A DNA stretch of 64,000 bases from an uncultured Phycisphaerales bacterium (lineage in GTDB: Bacteria > Planctomycetota > Phycisphaerae > Tepidisphaerales > Tepidisphaeraceae): NCBI GenBank assembly GCA_963758525.1, contig CAVWVQ010000003.1, positions 3,008,001 to 3,072,000 on the forward strand, given 5' to 3'. A program made the translations under genes and the position numbers. Every line of letters starts with the position of its first letter. The first letter of the stretch is position 1. Of this stretch, positions 18,725 through 33,703 are shown piece by piece. The notes beneath the pieces are model-generated. The model made no database searches and was not told the origin of the DNA. It saw only the letters and a program-made list of their open reading frames with translations.

Positions 18725-21110
18725 CTACTGGAGCAAACCAAAGGAGAAACTCAGGACCTCCGTATTGTCCTGCGAGCTCTTGGTTACGGGGAAGCCAAAG
18801 TCGATTGCCAGCGGAACTTGTCCAAGGAACGGCAAAGTGAGTCGCACGCCGGCTCCGACGCTGCTGCGGATTGTACCGAAGCGGACGCCACTCTCAACGT
18901 CGCCCGCGTCGGAGAAGACCACGCCGCGGAGGTTTTCGCCGTAGATGGGGAAGTTCAGCTCGACGGTGCCCGTCAGCGAGAAGTTGCCGCCGACCGGATC
19001 ATCCCCCAGCCCGCCGCGCGGGCTGACCCCGCGGTAACGAAACCCGCGCAAGCTTCCGATCCCGCCGCCATAGAACCGCTCGTAGAAGACCGAATCGCCG
19101 CTGATGAAGCCCGCGTTGGCATGGAAGCCCAGCACGGTGCGACGATCGATCAGATCTTCGAAAACTGATTTATAAGCGTCGTAGCTGGCCTGATACTTTT
19201 GGAAATGGAGGTCGCCGCCGAGCAGTCCGTAGCCCTCGACGCTCGCCTGTGTGACCGTCCCTTTATAAGGGAGCACGCCGGGATTGGTCGTATCGCGCCG
19301 CAGCTGCGCCGAGACGCTGGTCAGCGGATGGTGGCCTTCCGCCTCGAGAATCTCAAAAGGTCTGAATCTGGCGTCATCGATCCGGCCGATTTTCACTTGC
19401 TCCGCGCAGACTCAGCGAACCCGACCAGATGTAATCGAACCGCTTGCCGAACGAAACGCGGTCGCCGAGCCGTCGGTCGTCGTAATGCTCCCGAATGCGG
19501 TCGTGCAGATAGACCTCGTCGGAGAAGCTGTACGGCTGATCAAACATCCACGGCTCGCTGAAACGCAGCGACGCGTTGGTCTGAATCGTTCCCGGCTCGA
19601 AGCTGGCGCGAAAGTCCTGGCCCGCGCCGGTGAAAGCGTGATCGGAGAAGGTGTCGCGCCAATCGTTGGGAATGTTCGTGATGTCGAAGTTTCGCTGCTC
19701 GTAGGTGATATTGCCGCCCACGCCCCCGTTGCTGTTGATCCCCGCGCCGATGTTGAACGACGCGGTGCGATTCTCCGTCACTTCCACCAGCAGATCGCGC
19801 ACCGCCGGATCTTCGCCGATCGGGGTCATCTTGACGTCGCTGAAGTACGGCAGCGCCTTGACGCGATCCTGCGCGTCCTGCATCTCGCCGGAGTTGTAGA
19901 GGATTCCCGGAGAAAAGGCGTGAAACTCCCGCAGCACCAGCTTGTCCTGGCTCTTGTTGTTTCCCTTCACGTAGATGTTGCCGATCCGGAACGGCTTCCC
20001 CTCGTGCACGACATAGATCAGCTCCACCTTCCCCGGCTCATCGAGATACACCGTCTTAGTGTCGACGCGGAGATAATCCTCATCGCTCGATTGCGGCTCG
20101 TAGATAAAGCCAAACGGGCTGTAGTCTCGCACGATCTTTCGCACGTCGCGATCGAGCACTTCGCTGTCGTACGGGCTGCCGCTGGTGAGCTTTAATCCGC
20201 TGCGCAGCGTCGCTTCGCCGAGGCGGGTGTTCCCCTGGAAGCTCACGCGGGCGACGTCGTACCTGCGGCCTTCGGAAACCACGAAATCCACTTCCAGCTC
20301 CGACTGGTCCGGCGACCAGACGAGCTTCCGTCCGACCTTCACGTCGAAAAAACCCTTGTTCTGATAGAAGCGCCGCAGGGAGGCAATGTCCTCATCCACC
20401 TCCTGCGGGCTATACGTTCCGGGCCGGAAGATGAAAATCCACGAAGACGTTTTGATCTGGTCCTTCAGCTTGTCCTTGTCGAACGAGCGGACTCCCCGGA
20501 AATCGACATTGCGGATACGAACGCTTGGCCCCTCGACGATATTGAAGATCAGCTCGCCATGCGTCAGCGCGTCGTCGGAGACGCTCACTTCGGTGAACGG
20601 ATAATTCTTCTCGCGATAGGTCGATTCGATCGCCTGCTTGGAGAGTGCGATCCGAAAGTTATCGATCGCCTGCCCTTCAATGGTGTCGATCGCGTTTCGG
20701 AGTGTCTGATCGTCGACGTGCTTGTTCCCGTGGAAGCGAATGGCCCGAAGCAGCTTCTGTTCAGTGACAATAAAGACCACAACCACGCCGCCCGTCTTCG
20801 TCGGCTCGACCTTCGCTTCCACGTTGGCAAACTTCTTCAGCTCGAAGACGCGCTGGTAATCTTCCTGCACCGTGGCGGGGTCGAACTTCTCGCCCTCCCG
20901 CGTTCGGATGAGGTTTCGAACGATCGCGTTGGAGACAGTGGTGTTGCCGAGAATCCTGACCTCTTCGACGATCCGTCCCTTGAGATCCGGGGAAATCGCC
21001 GGCGGCGCGGGAAGCGTCTGCGAGAAAGCGAAGGGAGAGAGCGAGAGAAGACAGACAAGGCAGGAGATGCGGGCGAGATACGTCGCTGATCGAGGCTGGG
21101 TTTGTTTCAC
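18725..21110 (-). CDS. bamA: Outer membrane protein assembly factor BamA; frameshift near 19400
   Basis: POTRA repeats (YQNKGFFDVKV), ERFYGGGIGSLRGF motif, barrel C-terminus FSFGLLQ; start codon uncertain. Confidence 0.92.
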
Positions 21111-21415
21111 GCTCGCTCTGGTCCGCAAAGAGTCACGATCAGCACACTTTCGAGGCGTCACGTCTGTCACGCTATAAGCGTCGCGAAGTGTAACGGAGGG
21201 GAAAGCGATGTCAAAAACGCCGGGAGGGCATCTGCTTGCGTTGCTCGTCACATTTCCCCGGCTCGAGACCGTCACAGGATGTGCCATCGCGAGGATCCGC
21301 CGCCTCGCCGTGGAGCTGAAGCTCGCCGAAGTTTACGCCGGCGTCGATTTTCAACTCGCGCCCGACTGATGCGGCAATACGCTATCCGTGTGGCAGCCTA
21401 TCGAATTAGAATGCC

Positions 21416-22730
21416 TTGATGATCCGCAAGGAAATCCTGGCTTTGCGCTGCTTGCACCCCGTCGTTGCTCTCGCGCTAATTGGTATTCTGTGTCCTCTCG
21501 CCCGAGCCGGGGAGGCGACGCTGCAAACGCGCGCCGATGACATCGCAAGTCTCTTCTCGGATAACCCCGGCCAATATGGCCGCGTCTTCGCTCCCAGCTT
21601 TCTGGCCGCGGTTCCGTCCGCGCAACTGACAACAATCTTTCGCCAAACATTTCAACAATGCGGACGATGCAGGGCGGCAAAGCTGCTCCATGCGCCGAAT
21701 TCGGACTCGGGAGAATTTGAGTTCGTATTCGAAAAGGGATTTTTATCGTGCGCTCAACTCGTTATCGATCATGCTGCTCCTCACCTTGCCATCGGGTTCT
21801 TCATCGGTCCGGCTCGGCCTGACGCAAAATCGCTGAATGATGTCATTGCACAGCTCCAGAGCCTGCCCGGCGCCACATCACTCCTGGTGGCAGTGATAAA
21901 ACCCGACGGCCTCCACCCGATTGCCCAGCTCAACGCCGACAAGACGATGGCTGTCGGCTCGACATTCAAGCTGTATGTGCTGGCCGAGCTGATTCACGAA
22001 ATCGACACGCAGCAACGCCACTGGGCCGATGTCATTGACCTCGAACCCTCGGCCCGCTCTCTGCCGAGCGGCTTTTTGAACAAATGGCCCGCAGGCGCGC
22101 CGCTCACGCTTCACACACTGGCAGCGCTGATGATCTCGCAGAGCGACAACACCGCCGCCGACCAATTAATTCATCTGCTGGGTCGCGACAACATCGAGAA
22201 GATGCTTTCCGTCACAGGACACCATCAGCCGCAGCGCACGATCCCGTTCCTCACCACGCTGGAAATGTTCAAACTGAAGGGCGAACCGAGTGGAAAGCTC
22301 GTCGCTGATTATCTCGCCGCCGGCGCCGCGGACCGTTTGAAATTGCTGAATGGCCGCGTCGCGGAGTTTTCCCGCGATGCGATCGAGCTGCCGTCGAAGC
22401 CAAGTCATATCTCCGATGTCGAATGGTTTGCATCCGCCACGGACCTTGGAAATGCGATGCATTGGCTGCTCGATCACACGCAAGACAAACCCACCGCACC
22501 CGCGCGAGATTCTCGCCATCAATCCGGGACTCGCGTTGTCCAGGCAGGATTGGAACTACATCGGCTACAAGGGCGGCTCCGAAACGGGCGTGCTGAACAT
22601 GACCTATCTCCTGCAAACCCGCGACAAACGCTGGCTGACGTTCTCCGCCAGTTGGAATGATCCGCAAAACGCACTCGACGAGCCGAAATTCTTCGGGCTT
22701 GTGCAACGCGCAATCGAACTGGCGCAGTGA
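21416..22730 (+). CDS. Serine hydrolase, class A beta-lactamase-like (Cpe/LpqF-like); frameshift near 22505
   Basis: SxxK (GSTFK) and SDN motifs; KGG (YKGGSETG) lies in the second frame, ORF 22350..22730. Confidence 0.82.
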
Positions 22731-22818: not shown

Positions 22819-23897
22819 ATGCAATCTGGCGGACCTGGAAGTCAAGGCGGCGGCATCTCCGGTACCGGCCAGACGCGCCAGGTCGGAACGCGCGAGCAGT
22901 TCTCCGCTGAAGAACTTGCCATCGTCATGTCTCACTTTGACATCGGCGTGCTCGACTCGATCGTCGATTATCCGCGCGGCTCCCGCAAAGCCCCCAAGCT
23001 CCTGGTTGTCAGCGAGCAGGGCAAGTTCCTTCTCAAGCGCCGCGCCCGCGGCAAAGACGATCCGTACAAGGTCGCCTTCTCCCACGCGCTGCAGCTTTAC
23101 CTGGCGAGCAAGCAGTTTCCCCTGCCACATCTTGTCGGCACCAAGAAGGACAACAATTCGATGCTCCAGTGGCGCAACGCCGTGTACGAGCTCTTCGAAT
23201 ACATCCCCGGCCAGGGATATCCCCAGACGCTCGAAGCCACCTTCGACAGCGGCCGGGTGCTCTCGCTGTATCACAAGCTGCTGCAGGATTTTCAATCTGA
23301 GTGGAAGCCCTCCGGCGGCAGCTACCATCTGGCCGCCGCGGTCGAACAGGGCCTGGCGCTATTCCCAACCAGGTGGGCGATGCCGACGCCGGGCCGCTCC
23401 TCGAATTTCTCCTCGAAAGTTATCGCCACGCCGCCCAGATGGTCGAGAGCCTCGGGCTGGAGCGCTGGCCCAAGCAGATCGTCCACGCCGACTGGCATCC
23501 GGGAAACATGCTCTTCCGCGACAACCATGTGGTCGCCGTCATCGACTACGACTCAGCACGTCTTCTCGCCCGCATCATCGACGTCGCCAACGGCGCGTTG
23601 CAATTCTCCATCATCGGCGGCGATGAAGACGTCTCCAAATGGCCCGACAAGCTGGACGAGGGCCGATTCAAACGCTTCCTCCGCGGCTACGACCAGGTCA
23701 TGCTCCTCTCCGAAGCAGAGCTGCGTTCCATCCCCTGGCTCATGGTCGAAGCCCTGATCGCCGAAGCCGTCTTCCCCATCGCCGCCACCGGAACCTTCGG
23801 CCGCATGGAAGGCTTCGCCTTTCTGGAAATGGTTCAACGCAAGATCCATTGGATGCAAAAGTCCGCCGACAGCCTCGTCGAGCTCGCCGCCGGCTAG
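22819..23897 (+). CDS. Phosphotransferase (APH / type II homoserine kinase-like); frameshift near 23357
   Basis: FLLKRR in the first frame; IVHADWHPGNMLF and VIDYD in the second. Confidence 0.82.
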
Positions 23898-24877: not shown

Positions 24878-25178
24878 TGGCTCCGTGCGTCCAACTGCCA
24901 AATCCGCGAATGGCATTCCGAACGCCGGATGCGTTTGCCTCTTTCGTCGCTTGCTGGGACGCGTCCTTTCGAGCGGCAAGAGAGATTGTTGCGAAAAAAA
25001 CGCAGGCGACAAAAAATGTGCGCGGCGCACGAAGCCTTTTTACAGATTGTTGCGCGCGGTAAGCCGCAAACTGAAGAGCCGCGAAGGAGCGAAGAAAAGA
25101 CGCGAAGGAAAGACAAACAAAGAGAATTGCGGGCCGCTTTCTTCGCTTCTGGCCTTGCTGCTTCGCTGCGGCTGGCTA

Positions 25179-25376
25179 TCACGCGTCCGGCGTGCGCCCT
25201 GCGCGCGTCTTCCGGAAGCCGATGAACATTTAAATCAGGCCCCAGGCAATCATGCCGTAGTACAGCGTCCAGATACCACCGTCGGCGGCAGTTGCCGACC
25301 AGTACGTCAGCCCGCTGCAGGTGATCCCGGCCAAGGCGATGGCTGCGCCGAAATACAGATCGAAACGCCCGCTCAC
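25179..25376 (-). pseudogene. Small two-TM membrane protein with an internal TAA at 25230-25232 (or a shorter 48-aa CDS)
   Basis: MSGRFDLYFGAAIALAGITCSGLTYWSATAADGGIWTLYYGMIAWGLI*MFIGFRKTRAG...; the hydrophobic helix continues past the stop. Confidence 0.5.
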
Positions 25377-25442
25377 CTTTGCCGGACCACGTGGCAATAC
25401 AGAGGTGAAGGTTGCGTCTGCTCCCACCGCGCAGCGGTTTAG

Positions 25443-27378
25443 GTGCGCCTGCGAGCGTACCAGCATAGAGAGGTGCAAGTCCTCTCCGGGCATAGCGTTC
25501 TCCAGCCCGTAACTGAAAGTAACTGCGTGGCCGTGAGGCCAGGTGGAGAGCAACTGGAGGTGAACGACCAGTCCGAAACACAAGTGAACTCGATTCGGCC
25601 TGAAACGGTGACGAGCCTGCCTAAAAGTGGCGAAGTCCAGACCCGCGAGGGAGCGATGCATCTTTCAAGGGAAGCCCGGTGAGCTGAAGGGTAACGTGCA
25701 GAGAGGCGACGAGCCTCTCGTAAAGCGATGCCGGGGCCGTGAGGGTGATTGGAGTCGGAATGGTTGGAAGTGCTGGTGCGTGAAGCAGGGAGACCTGTTC
25801 CGGAAAGCGAACGGAGTTCATACGCCGTAACCAGTCGGCGTCGAAGAGCCGCCGGGGCAGGAGTCAGAGCGTCCGTAGTAGCGACGAAACGCCTTAACGG
25901 GCGTGGAGCCAAGGGACGCAGGAAAGTGGATGCGGGATGAATAGACCAATGGAACAACAATCGGCGCGAGTGCCCCGACTCGGGGCTAAGCAAGCCGAAG
26001 AATCCCATCGCATCGCGGGCGCAGGCTCGCGATGGGCATGGGCGGAACCATCGGTCTGGACAGCGCGCATGTTGCAGGCCCTTGAACAAGGGGTCAAAGG
26101 AGGCATCTGGTTCAGCCTGATTGATAAAGTCTACAAACGCAGCAACCTCTGGTCGTCATGGAGTAAGGTGGCGGCCAACAAGGGAGCGGCAGGCGTGGAC
26201 CATGTGACGGTGAAGCAGTACGAGCGCCATGTGGAAAAGCACATCGAGCATCTGACGGAAGAACTGAGGGCCGGGACGTATCGGCCCAAGGCGATCCGCC
26301 GGTGCTACATCCCCAAACCCGGCAGCGCCCAGGGGCGACCGCTGGGGATACCGACTGTGCAGGACCGCGTGGTTCAGGGCGCGCTGCGTCACGTGCTGGA
26401 ACCGATCTTCGAGAAGGACTTTCACGAGCACAGCTACGGCTTTCGCCCCGGAAGGGGATGCAAAGACGCGCTGCGTCACGTGCAGAAACTTTTGGACGAC
26501 GGATACCGGTACGTGGTAGACGCGGATCTGAAAAGCTACTTTGACACGATCCCGCACCGGCAGTTAATGGAGCGGGTGAGCCAGAAGGTGGCCGACGGAC
26601 GAGTGCTGAAACTGATCGAATCATTCCTCACGCAAGGCGTGCTGGAAGGACTGGACCAGTGGACGCCCGCATCCGGCGCGCCGCAAGGCGCGGTGCTCAG
26701 CCCACTGCTGAGTAACGTCTATCTGGACCCGCTGGACCATCTGATGGCCCGGCAGGGATTCCAGATGGTGCGCTACGCGGATGACTTTGTGATCCTGTGT
26801 CAGAGCCAAGAGGAGGCCGAGCGGGCGCTGGCCGAGGTGCAACGATGGACGGCGCAAGCCGGTCTGACGCTGCATCCGGAGAAGACACGAATCGTCGATG
26901 AGCGACAAAAGGGCTTCGACTTCCTGGGCTATCACTTTGGCCAAGGTCAAAGAGAACCCGGGAGCAAGAGCCTCAAGAAACTCAAAGACACCATTCGTGA
27001 AAAGACCCAACGTCGGAACGGCACTCGAATGGTCTGCATCATCGGCACGGTCAATCAGACGCTGCGTGGCTGGTTTGGCTACTTCAAACACAGCCGACGC
27101 GAGACGTTCGCTCCGCTGGACGCGTGGATCCGTATGAGGCTGCGAAGCATCTTGCGGCGACGCCACGGCGGGCGTGGACGTGGCGGTGGTCGTGACCACT
27201 ACCGCTGGCCCAATGCATACTTTGCCAAGCTGGGACTTTTCTCGCTGTTACAAGCCCATCGCTTGGCCTGTCAACCCGCTCGAACGGGAACCCACTGACT
27301 GGAGAGCCGGATGCGGGAGAACCGCCAGTCCGGTTCGGCGGGAGGGGAGGCCGGGAAACCGGCCTTCCCTACCCCGAT
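25443..27378 (+). mobile_element. Complete group II intron (1936 nt) carrying an RT/maturase ORF
   Basis: 5' GTGCG; domain V GAGAGCCGGATGCGGGAGAACCGCCAGTCCGGTTCG (AGC triad); domain VI ending CCTACCCCGAT. Removing the intron restores the GTTGAAC core site. Confidence 0.93.
25937..27298 (+). CDS. ltrA: Group II intron reverse transcriptase/maturase (RT + X, no endonuclease domain)
   Basis: GAAGVD, RPLGIPTVQDRVVQ, SYGFRPGR, DADLKSYFDTI, GAPQGAVLSPLL, RYADD, LRGWFGYF; no HNH tail. Confidence 0.95.
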   Translation: MNRPMEQQSARVPRLGAKQAEESHRIAGAGSRWAWAEPSVWTARMLQALEQGVKGGIWFSLIDKVYKRSNLWSSWSKVAANKGAAGVDHVTVKQYERHVEKHIEHLTEELRAGTYRPKAIRRCYIPKPGSAQGRPLGIPTVQDRVVQGALRHVLEPIFEKDFHEHSYGFRPGRGCKDALRHVQKLLDDGYRYVVDADLKSYFDTIPHRQLMERVSQKVADGRVLKLIESFLTQGVLEGLDQWTPASGAPQGAVLSPLLSNVYLDPLDHLMARQGFQMVRYADDFVILCQSQEEAERALAEVQRWTAQAGLTLHPEKTRIVDERQKGFDFLGYHFGQGQREPGSKSLKKLKDTIREKTQRRNGTRMVCIIGTVNQTLRGWFGYFKHSRRETFAPLDAWIRMRLRSILRRRHGGRGRGGGRDHYRWPNAYFAKLGLFSLLQAHRLACQPARTGTH

Positions 27379-27487
27379 TTCAACGGATAGAGTTCTCTGG
27401 CCGTCCACGCGACGCGGCCGGGAACGTGAAACTGAAGACAAGCTAACGACGCGACGCGGGACGGTCCAGAGCAACGCGGGGTTATGC
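27379..27487 (-). other. attC recombination site of an integron-type gene cassette (R' box interrupted by the intron)
   Basis: Minus strand reads GCATAAC-cccgc-GTTGCTCTGGACCGTCCCGCGTCGCG...CGCGTCGCGTGGACGGCCAGAGAAC-tctatcc-GTTGAA|C, an imperfect stem with unpaired (extrahelical-like) bases. Confidence 0.8.
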
Positions 27488-27865
27488 CGCAACTCCGGAT
27501 CGCCTAGCAGACCGGCCCGGCAAGAAAAAATGTGACGGCAAGATCGATAAATACGGCGATTGCCGGACATAGGAAAATCGCCAGAAGATATAGTGCTTTT
27601 GCCCCGCCGGACGCGCCAGTTTGGATTAGCAAGAAATGGACAAAGGAGCCTAATACGCACATGCAATCGATCGCCAAGCAGGATAGCCAGATCGCGCCAA
27701 CCCGCTGGTAATTGCTGCCCGCTGCGAACTGCAGGACGATGCAGACGATGTTGATGATGGCAACTACAAGGACAAGATGCCCAGCCGAACGCCGAAGCCG
27801 ACGATCGCTCTCCGATACATTCCCTGGCGACGGGGTCGAGTAGTCGAGCACGCGTTGCCGCATAA
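27384..27865 (-). mobile_element. Single integron-type gene cassette (482 bp)
   Basis: Begins G|TTATGCGGCAAC with the ATG inside the core site. Its own attC begins GTTGCGGCATAAC, complementary at 12/13 positions. Confidence 0.78.
27504..27863 (-). CDS. Cassette-borne hypothetical three-TM membrane protein
   Basis: 119 aa, VLDY N-terminal motif, three hydrophobic segments, lower GC; fills the cassette. Confidence 0.75.
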   Translation of the reverse strand: MRQRVLDYSTPSPGNVSESDRRLRRSAGHLVLVVAIINIVCIVLQFAAGSNYQRVGAIWLSCLAIDCMCVLGSFVHFLLIQTGASGGAKALYLLAIFLCPAIAVFIDLAVTFFLAGPVC

Positions 27866-27955
27866 CGAAGAGGACTTTATGCAGCGTGCGGCCAAAACCA
27901 TGACCAGACGGAACCGGTTCGTCGCACGCTGGATAAAGTCTGTTGAACTGAACCG
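27866..27955 (-). other. Upstream half of a palindromic attC-like acceptor site
   Basis: 20-bp inverted arms at 27873-27892 and 27921-27940 (2 mismatches). GTTGAACTGAACCG at 27942-27955 mirrors CGGTTTAG|TTCAAC across the intron junction. Confidence 0.65.
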
Positions 27956-28106
27956 ATCGTCAGTTTCTATGGGGATTGTATCGAGTTGCCGGGGCGGTGT
28001 CCCGCTCGGACTGATGCATGCCGCGGTTTGCGCCGCTGCATGATTCTTGGGAGAGGCGTTGCCGTGCGACTCCGCTCTGCTGGATTGTCGCCTTGAACCA
28101 CCGGGA

Positions 28107-28285
28107 AATCAAACGGGGACAGCCGTCTATTATTTTTCATCGCTGCCTCACGCTTTCTGCGCCCCACGCCCCGATTCAGCCCATGGTACGCGATTCCACC
28201 AGGAGCGATGCGGGCCGTCCTCGGCATCTCTCCACTTGAGCCGATCAGCCGCCGTTTGGAAATAGGCGGCCGTCCCCGTTTGATT
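28107..28285 (-). mobile_element. Truncated REP-associated tyrosine transposase (RAYT, Y1) remnant between 25-bp inverted repeats
   Basis: MPRTARIAPGGIAYHGLNRGVGR from 28227 resembles a RAYT N-terminus; IRs aatcaaacggggac(a/g)gccg(t/c)ctatt at 28107-28131 and 28261-28285. Confidence 0.7.
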
Positions 28286-28352
28286 CCCCCAAAACCGCAC
28301 GTCTGGTCTTCTCCCGCACGTTGCTCGTCTTCTGCTAACCAATGTGGAAAGT

Positions 28353-28452
28353 TCACCGCAGAGGGCGCAGAGTAACGCTGAGGCAGAAAAGACGACGAGG
28401 CTGCAAGTCGCTTTTCCCTTCCCTCTGCGCTCCTCCGCCTCCTCTGCGGTAA
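28353..28452. repeat. Intergenic inverted repeat of the ACCGCAGAG..CGCAGAG type
   Basis: tcaccgcagagggcgcagag ... ctctgcgctcctccgcctcctctgcggtaa. Confidence 0.6.
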
Positions 28453-28956
28453 ACATCGCATCCGATTTGACGGATTGTGGCACGGATCGCCTGACGGCGT
28501 CGCCGGTGATTGCGATTTGTCTTTTGGCCGCCATGAGTCCCGCATCAAAGATCTGAGCCCCAGCCGCTTGGCGATCTCGCGAGTCCATGAACCGCCGCAA
28601 AACGGGGCAGCGCGGTTTGAAGCGTTGGCTTATGCCGGGCTGGGACAAATAATGTGACATTTCGTGACATTACGTGCCATTTTTTTGGGTGAACTGAGTT
28701 GCGGGCTTCCGGATGGCAAAATCCGGGGCGACAGTAAATGTCGCATCGCGAGGCGGGGATTTCGTAGATTGACGGCGTGAATCGGGGCGGTGGAGAAGCC
28801 GGCAGCACGAAGCCAGGAGTTCAGGAGTCAGGAGTTTGGGCACGCCCGCGGCATCGGGGCGGCAAAAACATGCGGTATGTCTTGCTCCGGTGGGCCATCG
28901 CCCTAAAATGGCCGCCGGCGGATTCCGGACGCAGAGGAGATTGGACTTTTTGGCGG

Positions 28957-31676: not shown

Positions 31677-33703
31677 ATGCATCGAATTCGAATTGGTCAC
31701 AAACCCCGCCGCATCCATCGTGCGCCTGCCTTCGAGACGCTGGAGTCGCGCCACCTGCTGTCAGCGGCATCGAGCATCTATCTGCACGATGACATGCAGA
31801 TTCTGAAAAATGCGTCCAGCGGGACCACGGTGCAGGGGTTCACGCCAAGTCAGATCAAGAAAGCCTACGGCTTTGACAGCGTCACCTTTAACAGCGGGGC
31901 GGTGACCGGCAACGGGAGCGGTCAGACCATCGCGATCGTGGATGCCTTCAACGCGCCGTATATTTCCAGCGATCTGGGAGTGTTCGACGCGCAGTTCGGC
32001 ATCAGCGCGCCGCCGAGCTTGAGAGTCGTGAATCAGAGCGGCGGATCGACGCTCCCGGCAAACGATCCGGGGTGGGCCGGGGAGATTTCGCTCGACGTCG
32101 AGTGGGCGCATGCCATCGCGCCGGCGGCGAATATTCTGCTCGTTGAGGCCAACAGCGCAACCCTCACCGCCCTGCTGGCGGGAGTCAACTACGCCCGGCA
32201 CGTGGCGGGCGTCTCGGCGGTCTCGATGAGCTGGGGCGGCAGCGAATTCTTCAGCTTCAACGGCACGGAATTCACCGGCGAAACGCAGTACGACTCCGAC
32301 TTCACCACTCCTTCCGGTCACGGCGGCGTCACCTTCATCGCATCGGCCGGCGACAGCGGAACGTTCTCCGGCGTTCAATGGCCGGCAGTGTCCCCAAATG
32401 TGTTGTCCGTCGGCGGAACCAGTCTCTACACCAGCGCGGACGGCACCTACAACTCGGAGTATTCGTGGGTGGGAACCAGCGGGGGCTACAGCGAGATTGA
32501 GCCAACTCCCTCCTATCAGAACGGCGTCGATTTCGCGGGAACGCGCAGCTCCCCGGACGTCGCGTACGTTGCCGATCCAAATACCGGCGTGGCAGTCTTC
32601 GATTCGTATCCTGACGGCGGGTACGTCGGATGGCAGGTGGTGGGCGGCACCAGCGCCGTGCGCCGCAGTGGGCGGGGCTGATTGCGATCGCGAATCAGGG
32701 ACGCGCCCTCTCGGGTCTCGGCACGCTCGACGGTGTGTCGCAGACGCTCCCGATCATCTACAGCCTGTACAGCGCGCCGGGGACGAGCGGCTATTCCAGC
32801 TACACATCCGACTTCAACGACATCATCGACCCGCGCAACTTCTTCGAAGCCGCCACGCCCGGGTACGACCAACTCACCGGCGTGGGGTCGCCCAAGGCGT
32901 TTAATGTGGTCGATGCATTGGCGGACATCTCGCCGGGGAGTCAGCCGATAACGCCCACTCCTCCGACGACGCCGGTGCTGCCTCCTTCGACCATCGAGGC
33001 GACCATCATTTCCTCGCTGCCGGTTTCCGCGGTGGGCGACACCATCGGCTCGATGACGCTGCGGCTGTTCAATACCGGCGCCACCGCGTTCAGCGGGCCT
33101 CTCTCGGTTGCGCTCTACACCACAACCGACGGTTCGATTACTGCGAGTGACACGCCGTTTGAGACCGTGACGCTGGATCAGGTGAATGTCGCCGCCAACA
33201 AAGCATCGAAGGTGGTGGTCCACTTCAAGTATCCCACGAACGTTCCCAATGGCAGCTATCAGTTCGCCGCCGCCGTCACCGCTACCGGCGCCGGCACGGC
33301 ACCGGCCGATGCCGTCGCGTCCGATTCGGTCAGCATTGCGGCCCCGATTGTCGATCTCGACGCCAAGGCACTTCAGAAGAGCACGGCCGTCAATCCAGGC
33401 CATCGCAAGTCGATCGAAATTCGCATCACCAATACCGGCAACTTCACCGCCTCGGGCGTGCTGACGTTGAATCTCTATTCATCGACTGATACCACGCTCG
33501 ACGCCTCGGATCCGATGATTCTCTCGTTCGGAAGGCGCATCGCGCTGCGGCCCGCGCGTTCGATGCTGGTGAACCTCCGCTTCGTGGCGCCGTCGTCGTT
33601 GGCTGCGGGGTCCTACAACCTGATCGCGGCGGCAAGCTCGTCTATTCGGCCGCCCGATGTCGATTCGGGCGACAAGATCGTTGTGATCGCAACGCGGGGA
33701 TGA
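31677..33703 (+). CDS. Secreted S53 (sedolisin/kumamolisin) peptidase with C-terminal CARDB-like domains; frameshift near 32658
   Basis: FETLESRHLLS leader; EISLDVEW, SAGDSG, PDVA and GGTS, then GYDQLTGVGSP in the second frame. Confidence 0.88.

What the first reader, a model, noticed from the sequence alone, without database searches (positions are those of the whole stretch)
27384..27865. Solitary integron-type gene cassette with no integrase in the window
Seen: the ORF's ATG lies inside the core site (G|TTATGCGGCAAC), and the stop is followed after about 16 bp by an attC-shaped element. That element's R'' region (GTTGCGGCATAAC) is complementary to the cassette's own first bases, and bulged bases sit in the L-box stem. 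These are the established hallmarks of IntI-mobilised cassettes. No tyrosine recombinase is encoded within 25 kb upstream or 36 kb downstream, so this is a CALIN/SALIN-type arrangement. The cargo is an unknown three-TM protein.
Basis: partly seen in the sequence, partly recalled or inferred. Interest (0 to 1): 0.72.

Follow-up and report, generated by a model that had tools for sequence, protein, structure and literature searches.

The report
Stray integron cassette between IS91 ends
This is a real integron gene cassette for an unknown membrane protein, stranded far from the genome's own integron between the broken ends of a cassette-shaped jumping gene, where the integron integrase likely placed it; it is ordinary as a cassette, but that jumping gene may seed such satellite clusters.

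Summary
The cassette is real. Window 27865-27384 (-) is 482 bp. Its ATG lies in the G|TT core, and a canonical attC (bottom-strand bulges T-N6-C) follows 16 nt after the stop. A model built without this site scores it at 99 bits (next best 13). No tyrosine recombinase lies in the window, but an intI with an array of the same attC family lies on another contig. A cargo homolog is a complete cassette in a relative.

'Solitary' is only half right. Upstream lies the right-end hairpin of an IS91-transposase/tyrosine-recombinase element built like a cassette. Downstream lies that element's left end, split by a recently spread non-IIC group II intron that sits in this attC's R' box, behind a small DNA hairpin. 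Only one site is a canonical attC, so SALIN versus CALIN depends on whether the bulge-less upstream site counts.

Most likely IntI, acting in trans, inserted the cassette at the element's end site, and the cluster then decayed. Relocation of an array piece fits nearly as well. The scan noted this element, and introns homing to its end, before on other DNA.

The parts
27384..27865 (-). Gene cassette, 482 bp, crossover to crossover
27504..27863 (-). Cargo ORF, 119 aa, three predicted membrane helices; small unnamed family
27378..27487 (-). attC (family A): R'' 27487-27481; bottom-strand extrahelical T 27465 and C 27472; crossover 27384|27383; R' 7-mer cut by the intron after 27379
27860..27948 (-). 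Site B: right-end hairpin of the IS91/Y-recombinase element; R''/R'-like boxes, 1-nt and 6-nt spacers, 18-bp stem with one C-C mismatch, no bulges; supplies the cassette's upstream crossover
27866..28103 (-). Right-end remnant of the element (78% over 242 nt to G000:C2:272503-272740), with a conserved motif at 27978-27967 (oriIS-like, inferred) and a weak promoter-like match 28003-27975
28103..28289 (.). 187-bp element with 29-nt terminal inverted repeats that bounds the remnant; interior resembles the start of a Y1 transposase (recalled, no Pfam hit)
27379..27383 (-). First 5 nt of the element's left end (3' exon side of the intron)
25393..25442 (-). Rest of the element's left end (86% over 50 nt to G000:C2:274934-274983), with the mini-hairpin 25426-25438 just before the intron
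25443..27378 (+). Group II intron, 1936 nt, AGC triad, opposite to the cassette; RT/maturase ORF 25937-27298; EBS1 loop 25621-25626; DV-DVI 27302-27378
25203..25397 (-). 3' half of a small membrane-protein gene (homolog residues 75-139, in-frame stop at 25232-25230) fused to the left-end remnant; the 5' half was not found in the assembly

Best explanation
The 482-bp unit is a genuine integron gene cassette (a predicted three-helix membrane-protein gene plus an attC of the family found beside this genome's own intI on another contig) lying between the right and left ends of broken IS91/tyrosine-recombinase elements, and it was likely put there by that IntI acting in trans, which would join the excised cassette's folded attC strand to the element's right-end hairpin. 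Shown: the cassette starts exactly at the G|TT after the element's end site, its own R'' pairs with its head, and the next unit (an element left end) starts exactly at the G|TT of its attC. Inferred order: (1) the element, which has its own recombinase and cassette-like ends, reached this intergenic region; (2) IntI added the cassette and a second element copy; (3) deletions and a small inverted-repeat element removed both element bodies and half a host gene; (4) last, a group II intron homed into the surviving left-end hairpin, using a 5-base EBS1 guide, and split the attC R' box while leaving the GTT crossover. The cargo probably acts as a small accessory membrane protein; its activity is untested. 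Cassette identity is about 0.95 likely. The confidence given here is for identity plus this route.
For: attC geometry, model score and covariation. T-N6-C bulges are a type that integron integrases excise (PMC3053210 passages). The site shares 74 of 110 positions with the first attC behind intI. intI scores 338.8 bits against a cut-off of 265, with a divergent array. A cargo homolog in G013 is a complete cassette, also with ATG in the core. The element's C2 copy carries Phage_int_SAM_4, Phage_integrase, Zn_Tnp_IS91 and Y2_Tnp. Its left-end motif occurs in 16 of 141 family genomes and at 120 or more metagenome places, with the recombinase within 400 bp in 48 of 67. Only 11 of 102 left ends follow a strict attC (5 of 3000 random GTT), so many copies appear to sit outside attC sites. 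In this genome four loci outside the two arrays have site B followed at its crossover by cassette-like sequence (C2:258564, C3:101360, C3:2143228, the window); in three of them site B is the first att-like site. Intron: 4 full copies differ at no more than 2 of 1936 positions and occupy 4 of 10 such targets. EBS1 pairs 4 of 4 with the exon end in 20 of 22 distinct relatives (mean 3.86 against 1.80 shuffled, 0 of 5000).
Against: Element-cassette-element order is also the rule in the C2 array, so order alone does not separate in-place growth from a relocated array piece. Site B has no extrahelical bases and is not scored by the attC model; that IntI recombines it is inferred only from cassettes following it in arrays. 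The strict attC test behind 11 of 102 is insensitive (3 of 9 known cassettes), so it overstates non-attC insertion. No empty site was found: homologs of the two flanking genes lie on different contigs in G095 and G096. The first 35 or so intI codons are in another frame, in both the main copy and a duplicate fragment, so today's IntI may be inactive. 9 of 12 cargo-homolog loci have no attC. At C3:2143k an attC precedes site B.
Confidence: 0.5

Rival explanations
1. A piece of a main array (element-cassette-element) was moved here as a block, as a multi-cassette circle, by IS91-type one-ended transposition or by recombination between element copies, and then decayed.
For: The same alternation fills the C2 array. 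Both element remnants are about 80% like the long C2 copy, which also fits one two-unit circle opened inside the element. One-ended transposition is reported for IS91 (PMC13181058 passages). Rearrangement is a proposed origin of CALINs (bioRxiv 2022.09.11.507474 passages).
Against: This cassette and this site-B variant are absent from both arrays; the closest site-B sibling is itself outside an array (C2:258.6 kb). No intact transposon flanks the block.
Confidence: 0.3
2. This is the relic of a second complete integron at this locus whose intI and attI were deleted.
For: Deletions have clearly occurred on both sides. A similar intI-less array with an attI-like region exists on C2.
Against: The intI 5'/attI region matches only C1 and C2, not the window. 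No recombinase remnant is found in the window.
Confidence: 0.1
3. It is a true SALIN: one cassette circle inserted by IntI at a chromosomal attG site.
For: Only one canonical attC lies in 64 kb. The route is shown experimentally elsewhere (passages).
Against: Both neighbours are mobile-element ends that meet the cassette exactly at G|TT, not plain chromosomal DNA.
Confidence: 0.07
4. It is not a cassette: a REP-like palindrome beside a chance ORF, or an assembly or binning artefact.
For: The genome is rich in palindromic repeats, and 44 sites pass my loose scan genome-wide. The assembly has 6% contamination and several split genes.
Against: 99 bits on the family model, covariation and head/R'' pairing. 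The cargo family is conserved. A short-read contig matches 27464-27720 with no difference, though it may come from the source sample. Near-identical introns and equal GC tie C1, C2 and C3 together.
Confidence: 0.03

Closest known systems
Integron gene cassettes with T-N6-C/T-N6-G attC sites (PMC3053210, passages read)
   Same: R''/R' boxes, 5-nt left spacer, two same-side bulges six bases apart, G|TT crossover, single ORF, head complementary to R''.
   Different: 110-nt site with a 7-nt right spacer and a long terminal loop; cargo of no described family.
SALIN / small CALIN (bioRxiv 10.1101/2022.09.11.507474 and PMC9024848, passages read)
   Same: Cassette far from any intI; one canonical attC; IntI present elsewhere in the genome.
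   Different: The upstream partner is a mobile-element end hairpin, not an attG site or a canonical attC, and a cassette-type head follows.
IS91-family elements with an integron-like tyrosine recombinase; ISShvi3 next to an attC (bioRxiv 10.1101/542381, PMC9229058, PMC13181058, passages read)
   Same: Y-recombinase plus IS91 transposase; palindrome next to GTTC at the left end, as described for terIS; found in cassette arrays.
   Different: Here both ends are mapped as a cassette with its own bulge-less hairpin site and a repeated 287-bp gene-less form; only the ends survive in the window.
Group IIC-attC introns such as S.ma.I2 (PMC3001079 passages; PMC7923331 parts 1-3 of 7)
   Same: Group II intron without endonuclease domain, on the attC bottom strand, opposite to the cassettes, behind a DNA hairpin with a short guide.
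   Different: AGC rather than CGC triad; RT only 35-37% identical to class C references and on a separate branch; inserted in R' behind the element's mini-hairpin, not in R'' behind the attC hairpin.
Non-C intron types found after terminators (g6, U1, U2; PMC8919778 passages) and IIB introns in arrays (PMC7923331)
   Same: Hairpin-adjacent insertion by introns outside class C.
   Different: Which named type this lineage is was not determined; those papers' passages give no IS91-end target.

Membership tests
Integron gene cassette / canonical attC | R'' and R' boxes with a G|TT crossover; R'' complementary to the cassette's own head | tested here: met
   12 of 14 positions
Integron gene cassette / canonical attC | Folded bottom strand with L box and two extrahelical bases six apart | tested here: met
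   T-N6-C; score equals class 1 controls; covariation
Integron gene cassette / canonical attC | Same site family arrayed behind an intI | tested here: met
Integron gene cassette / canonical attC | IntegronFinder attC covariance model above threshold | not testable with these tools
   Model not held; Rfam gave only the intron. My family model also picks up class 1 attCs weakly, 12-22 bits
Integron gene cassette / canonical attC | Excision or integration by IntI | not testable with these tools
   No circle junction among contigs laid; contigs cannot show absence
SALIN | No integrase gene nearby | tested here: met
   the nearer end of contig C3 is 2.0 Mb away
SALIN | No other att site nearby | tested here: inconclusive
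   Site B abuts the cassette head but is not a canonical attC
CALIN (two or more attC, IntegronFinder 2 default) | At least two attC sites | tested here: inconclusive
   One canonical site plus one non-canonical site
Canonical attC (site B) | 5-nt left spacer and extrahelical bases | tested here: not met
   1-nt/6-nt spacers in 20 of 29 distinct ends (6 from this genome), unbulged stems up to 18 bp
Group IIC-attC intron | CGC triad in domain V | tested here: not met
   AGC here; CGC in the class C controls L308-L310 and in L312
Group IIC-attC intron | Insertion in R'' (TTGT/T) on the bottom strand | tested here: not met
   All 4 full copies lie in R'; 3' exons of controls L309 and L310 fit the R'' position
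Group IIC-attC intron | RT in the class C clade | tested here: not met
   Class C references group apart (SH-aLRT 99, quick tree, 32 rows; L311 is a long, unreliable branch); 35-37% identity
Hairpin-guided homing (works like class C) | DNA stem-loop just 5' of a short IBS1 | tested here: met
   20 of 20 exons fold better than upstream controls; EBS1 covariation
IS91 family (element ends in the window) | Y2 HUH transposase; terIS palindrome next to GTTC; oriIS | tested here: inconclusive
   Transposase only in the C2 copy; palindrome plus GTTC seen at the left end; oriIS label inferred; transposition untested

The most novel reading that the evidence does not exclude
A widespread IS91/tyrosine-recombinase element is a self-mobile cassette that plants its own bulge-less att hairpin around the chromosome, and the host IntI then loads cassettes onto it. 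This would give a third route to CALINs and SALINs besides attG insertion and integrase loss. A non-class-C intron lineage has retuned its guide to the element's conserved left-end hairpin and so rides into attC R' boxes.
Probability: 0.3. Interest if true: 0.7.

Novelty: new member of a known kind. Interest (0 to 1): 0.33.

Why it matters
As given, the finding is one more isolated cassette; thousands of SALINs and small CALINs are catalogued (passages). Its value lies in the flanks. How small integrase-less clusters arise is still open, and this locus offers a precise, testable candidate: cassette capture at the end hairpin of a mobile IS91/Y-recombinase element. It also shows an intron outside class C entering an attC at the opposite end from the known attC introns. 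Searches (introns; IS91 with attC) found only brief mentions (PMC9229058, PMC7923331, bioRxiv 542381). The library lacks most subscription journals and I read no supplements, so absence from print is not established.

Tried and rejected
Cargo function. No Pfam family (18-member scan, best E 0.005 in single members). No PADLOC match. No Foldseek PDB match at E<=0.001. Atlas gave only hypothetical clusters at 0.90-0.91 with recognition below its threshold. A single-sequence word search and viral contigs were blank. L290 and L292 were wrong-frame chance hits. L294, L301 and L302 (weak hits in long ORFs) were left out of the context count.

I first read the upstream site as a second ordinary attC and dropped that. 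I first read the downstream gene fragment as a decayed cassette and dropped that too: 0 of 3 homologs have an attC.

The intron was considered as IIC-attC and rejected. EBS2 pairing was only eyeballed and is not claimed. The first EBS1 count (13 of 23) used boundaries shifted by 2 nt in several rows and was redone (27 of 81 loci were parsable).

A fold-based attC classifier for element insertion sites flagged 74 of 300 random sites, so its 41/6/78 split is not used. No empty site was found in relatives.

No RNA holder was listed. No 482-bp circle junction appeared in three contig sets, which cannot show absence. The promoter-like match upstream is weak (2 found, 0.5 +/- 0.8 expected). The careful RT tree did not finish; the quick tree is quoted.

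Full report
1. Observation. The described unit is in the sequence. On the - strand a G|TT crossover at 27866|27865 is followed at once by the ATG (27863) of a 119-codon ORF. Sixteen bases after the stop comes R'' (27487-27481), and the next G|TT lies at 27384|27383, giving 482 bp. The head pairs with its own R'' region at 12 of 14 positions, as do 18 of 23 segments of the genome's arrays at 10-13 of 14. The site folds with a 5-nt left spacer, a 7-nt right spacer and bottom-strand bulges T and C six bases apart. It scores as high as two class 1 attC controls, and one such hit arose in 100 shuffled windows. T-N6-C sites are excised by integron integrases (PMC3053210, passages). A covariance model from 11 array sites without this one gives 99 bits, next best 13.2. 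The family shows compensatory change at 6 of 21 pairs. No tyrosine recombinase lies in the window.

2. The integron it belongs to. The window is G000:C3:3008001-3072000. The nearest named relatives of its proteins are planctomycetes. One of 14 TIGR02249 matches passes the cut-off, at C1:197972-198829, and is followed by an array of about a dozen cassettes. A second array lies on C2 behind an attI-like region without a full intI. The window's attC shares 74 of 110 positions with the first attC behind intI. Eight loci outside the arrays, the window included, carry whole or partial sites of the same two families. Against current activity, the first 35 or so intI codons are out of frame in the main copy and in a duplicate fragment. 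The assembly also has other split genes, so this needs checking.

3. The flanks. Upstream, 28103-27866 is 78% identical to the right end of a 2.5-kb unit in the C2 array. Downstream, 27383-27379 plus 25442-25393 matches that unit's left end. The C2 unit encodes an integron-like tyrosine recombinase and an IS91 transposase. A 287-bp gene-less form with the same ends recurs eight times in the arrays, three of them with the intron. The left-end motif is in 16 of 141 family genomes (2 control matches) and at 120 or more metagenome places, with the recombinase close behind in 48 of 67. It is a palindrome next to GTTC, as described for terIS (PMC13181058, passages). The right end is a hairpin with R''/R'-like boxes but 1- and 6-nt spacers and an unbulged stem in 20 of 29 distinct ends; the attC model does not score it. 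Such recombinases are known as an integron-like subgroup (bioRxiv 542381, passages), and ISShvi3 beside an attC has been mentioned (PMC9229058, passages). A 187-bp inverted-repeat element bounds the upstream remnant. The downstream remnant is fused to the 3' half of a membrane-protein gene whose 3 of 3 homologs are not cassettes and whose 5' half was not found in the assembly.

4. The intron. Window 25443-27378 (+) is a 1936-nt group II intron. Four full copies, on three contigs, differ at no more than two positions and all lie at the same base of the element's left end; 6 of 10 such targets are empty. In attC terms it sits on the bottom strand within R', leaving GTT and three more bases. It is not IIC-attC: the triad is AGC, the RT is 35-37% identical to class C references and groups apart, and the known position is R''. 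It works like class C, however. Relatives (80 loci) sit behind REP-like hairpins, and their EBS1 loop covaries with the exon end in 20 of 22 distinct cases. Here a 5-bp mini-hairpin precedes the exon end TTTAG, matched by CUAAA. Non-C types after terminators (PMC8919778, passages) and IIB introns in arrays (PMC7923331, parts 1-3) are reported. I did not assign a named class (PMC3552965, parts 1-2 of 4; PMC4424553, passages).

5. The cargo. HMMER over 1.84 billion representatives found two relatives, 47% and 28% identical. A profile found homologs in 8 of 140 family genomes and 2 of 400 sampled phylum genomes; a wider profile listed 18 database proteins, some of them its own members. Shared features are an N-terminal LDY motif, three helices, two conserved Asn (one is Asp here) and a Pro. 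AlphaFold gives three long helices, pLDDT 74, pTM 0.52, with no structural or family match. Of 12 homolog loci, 3 (all in G013) lie in attC arrays, one as a complete cassette with ATG in the core; 9 have no attC. Third-position GC is 0.63 against 0.79-0.83 for two neighbouring genes. It is most likely a small accessory membrane protein that circulates both as a cassette and as a lone gene; no activity can be assigned.

6. Mechanism. IntI recombines folded attC bottom strands at G|TT (established knowledge). The exact junctions on both sides show that the cassette entered at the element's end site and that a second element end followed. I favour growth in place: the element reached the chromosome outside an array and IntI loaded it in trans (0.5). 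Four dispersed loci show site B followed by cassette-like sequence, and in three it is the first site. Relocation of an array piece (0.3) fits the order equally well, since C2 alternates in the same way. A lost integron (0.1), a plain attG insertion (0.07) and an artefact (0.03) fit less well. The intron came last, judged by near-identical copies against 78-86% identity of the element remnants. Excision today is doubtful, because the upstream partner is bulge-less with a mismatch and intI may be broken.

7. Comparison and verdict. It is a member of the integron cassettes by every feature testable here. SALIN or CALIN is undecided and turns on site B (definitions: bioRxiv 2022.09.11.507474 and PMC9024848, passages). 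Isolated cassettes are common, so the finding is a new member of a known kind, interest 0.33. The unusual part is its setting. Earlier notes of this scan, read after my own analysis, describe the same element family and introns at its end in other genomes; they are unchecked leads, not support. No supplements were read; intron-class tables in them could bear on the class assignment.

Noticed in passing
G000:C2:265-278 kb and C1:202-209.5 kb: A 287-bp gene-less cassette with the IS91/Y-recombinase element's ends occurs eight times, nearly identical, often as every second cassette and once in tandem; its AT-rich interior may be a promoter (untested).
   Followed up: partly
G000:C3:101273-101365; L165: A site B made of two right arms in inverted order, with GTT crossovers pointing both ways; a similar inverted pair of left ends is in L165. 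This would fit recombination of a bulge-less hairpin on either strand.
   Followed up: no
G000:C1:204862 and C2:274989: The element's left end starts inside a family-A attC (loop or left arm) rather than at R', so it may insert or delete at non-canonical G sites.
   Followed up: no
G000:C1:205.9-206.4 kb: A duplicate intI 5' part with attI sits inside the array, followed by further cassettes; it shares the frame break of the main intI.
   Followed up: partly
L103, L105, L106: Three of 80 intron relatives sit behind mini-hairpins much like the element's left end, at slightly different offsets.
   Followed up: no
L285:4287-6285: A Thiodictyon plasmid integron carries an annotated IS91 transposase plus site-specific integrase as its second unit.
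   Followed up: no
window 28614-28830: A dispersed repeat of 130-210 bp with about a dozen 71-78% copies in the genome; REP-like palindromes at 28351-28454 and 25050-25130.
   Followed up: no
window 18725-21287, 21416-22730, 22819-23897, 31677-33703: Several genes (BamA-like, serine hydrolase-like, kinase-like, subtilase-like; labels recalled) are split across frames, which suggests indel errors in the assembly.
   Followed up: no
window 25232-25233: A contig from run X1 differs at the in-frame stop of the downstream gene fragment (4 differences in 151 bases), so it may be another strain or an error.
   Followed up: no
G000:C3:2745193-2745877 and C3:832840-832914: Fragments of two related, more divergent group II introns at other targets.
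   Followed up: no
L304 (G013): A neighbouring cassette encodes another protein that starts with the same LDY-type motif but has a different body; the motif may be a shared N-terminal signal.
   Followed up: no
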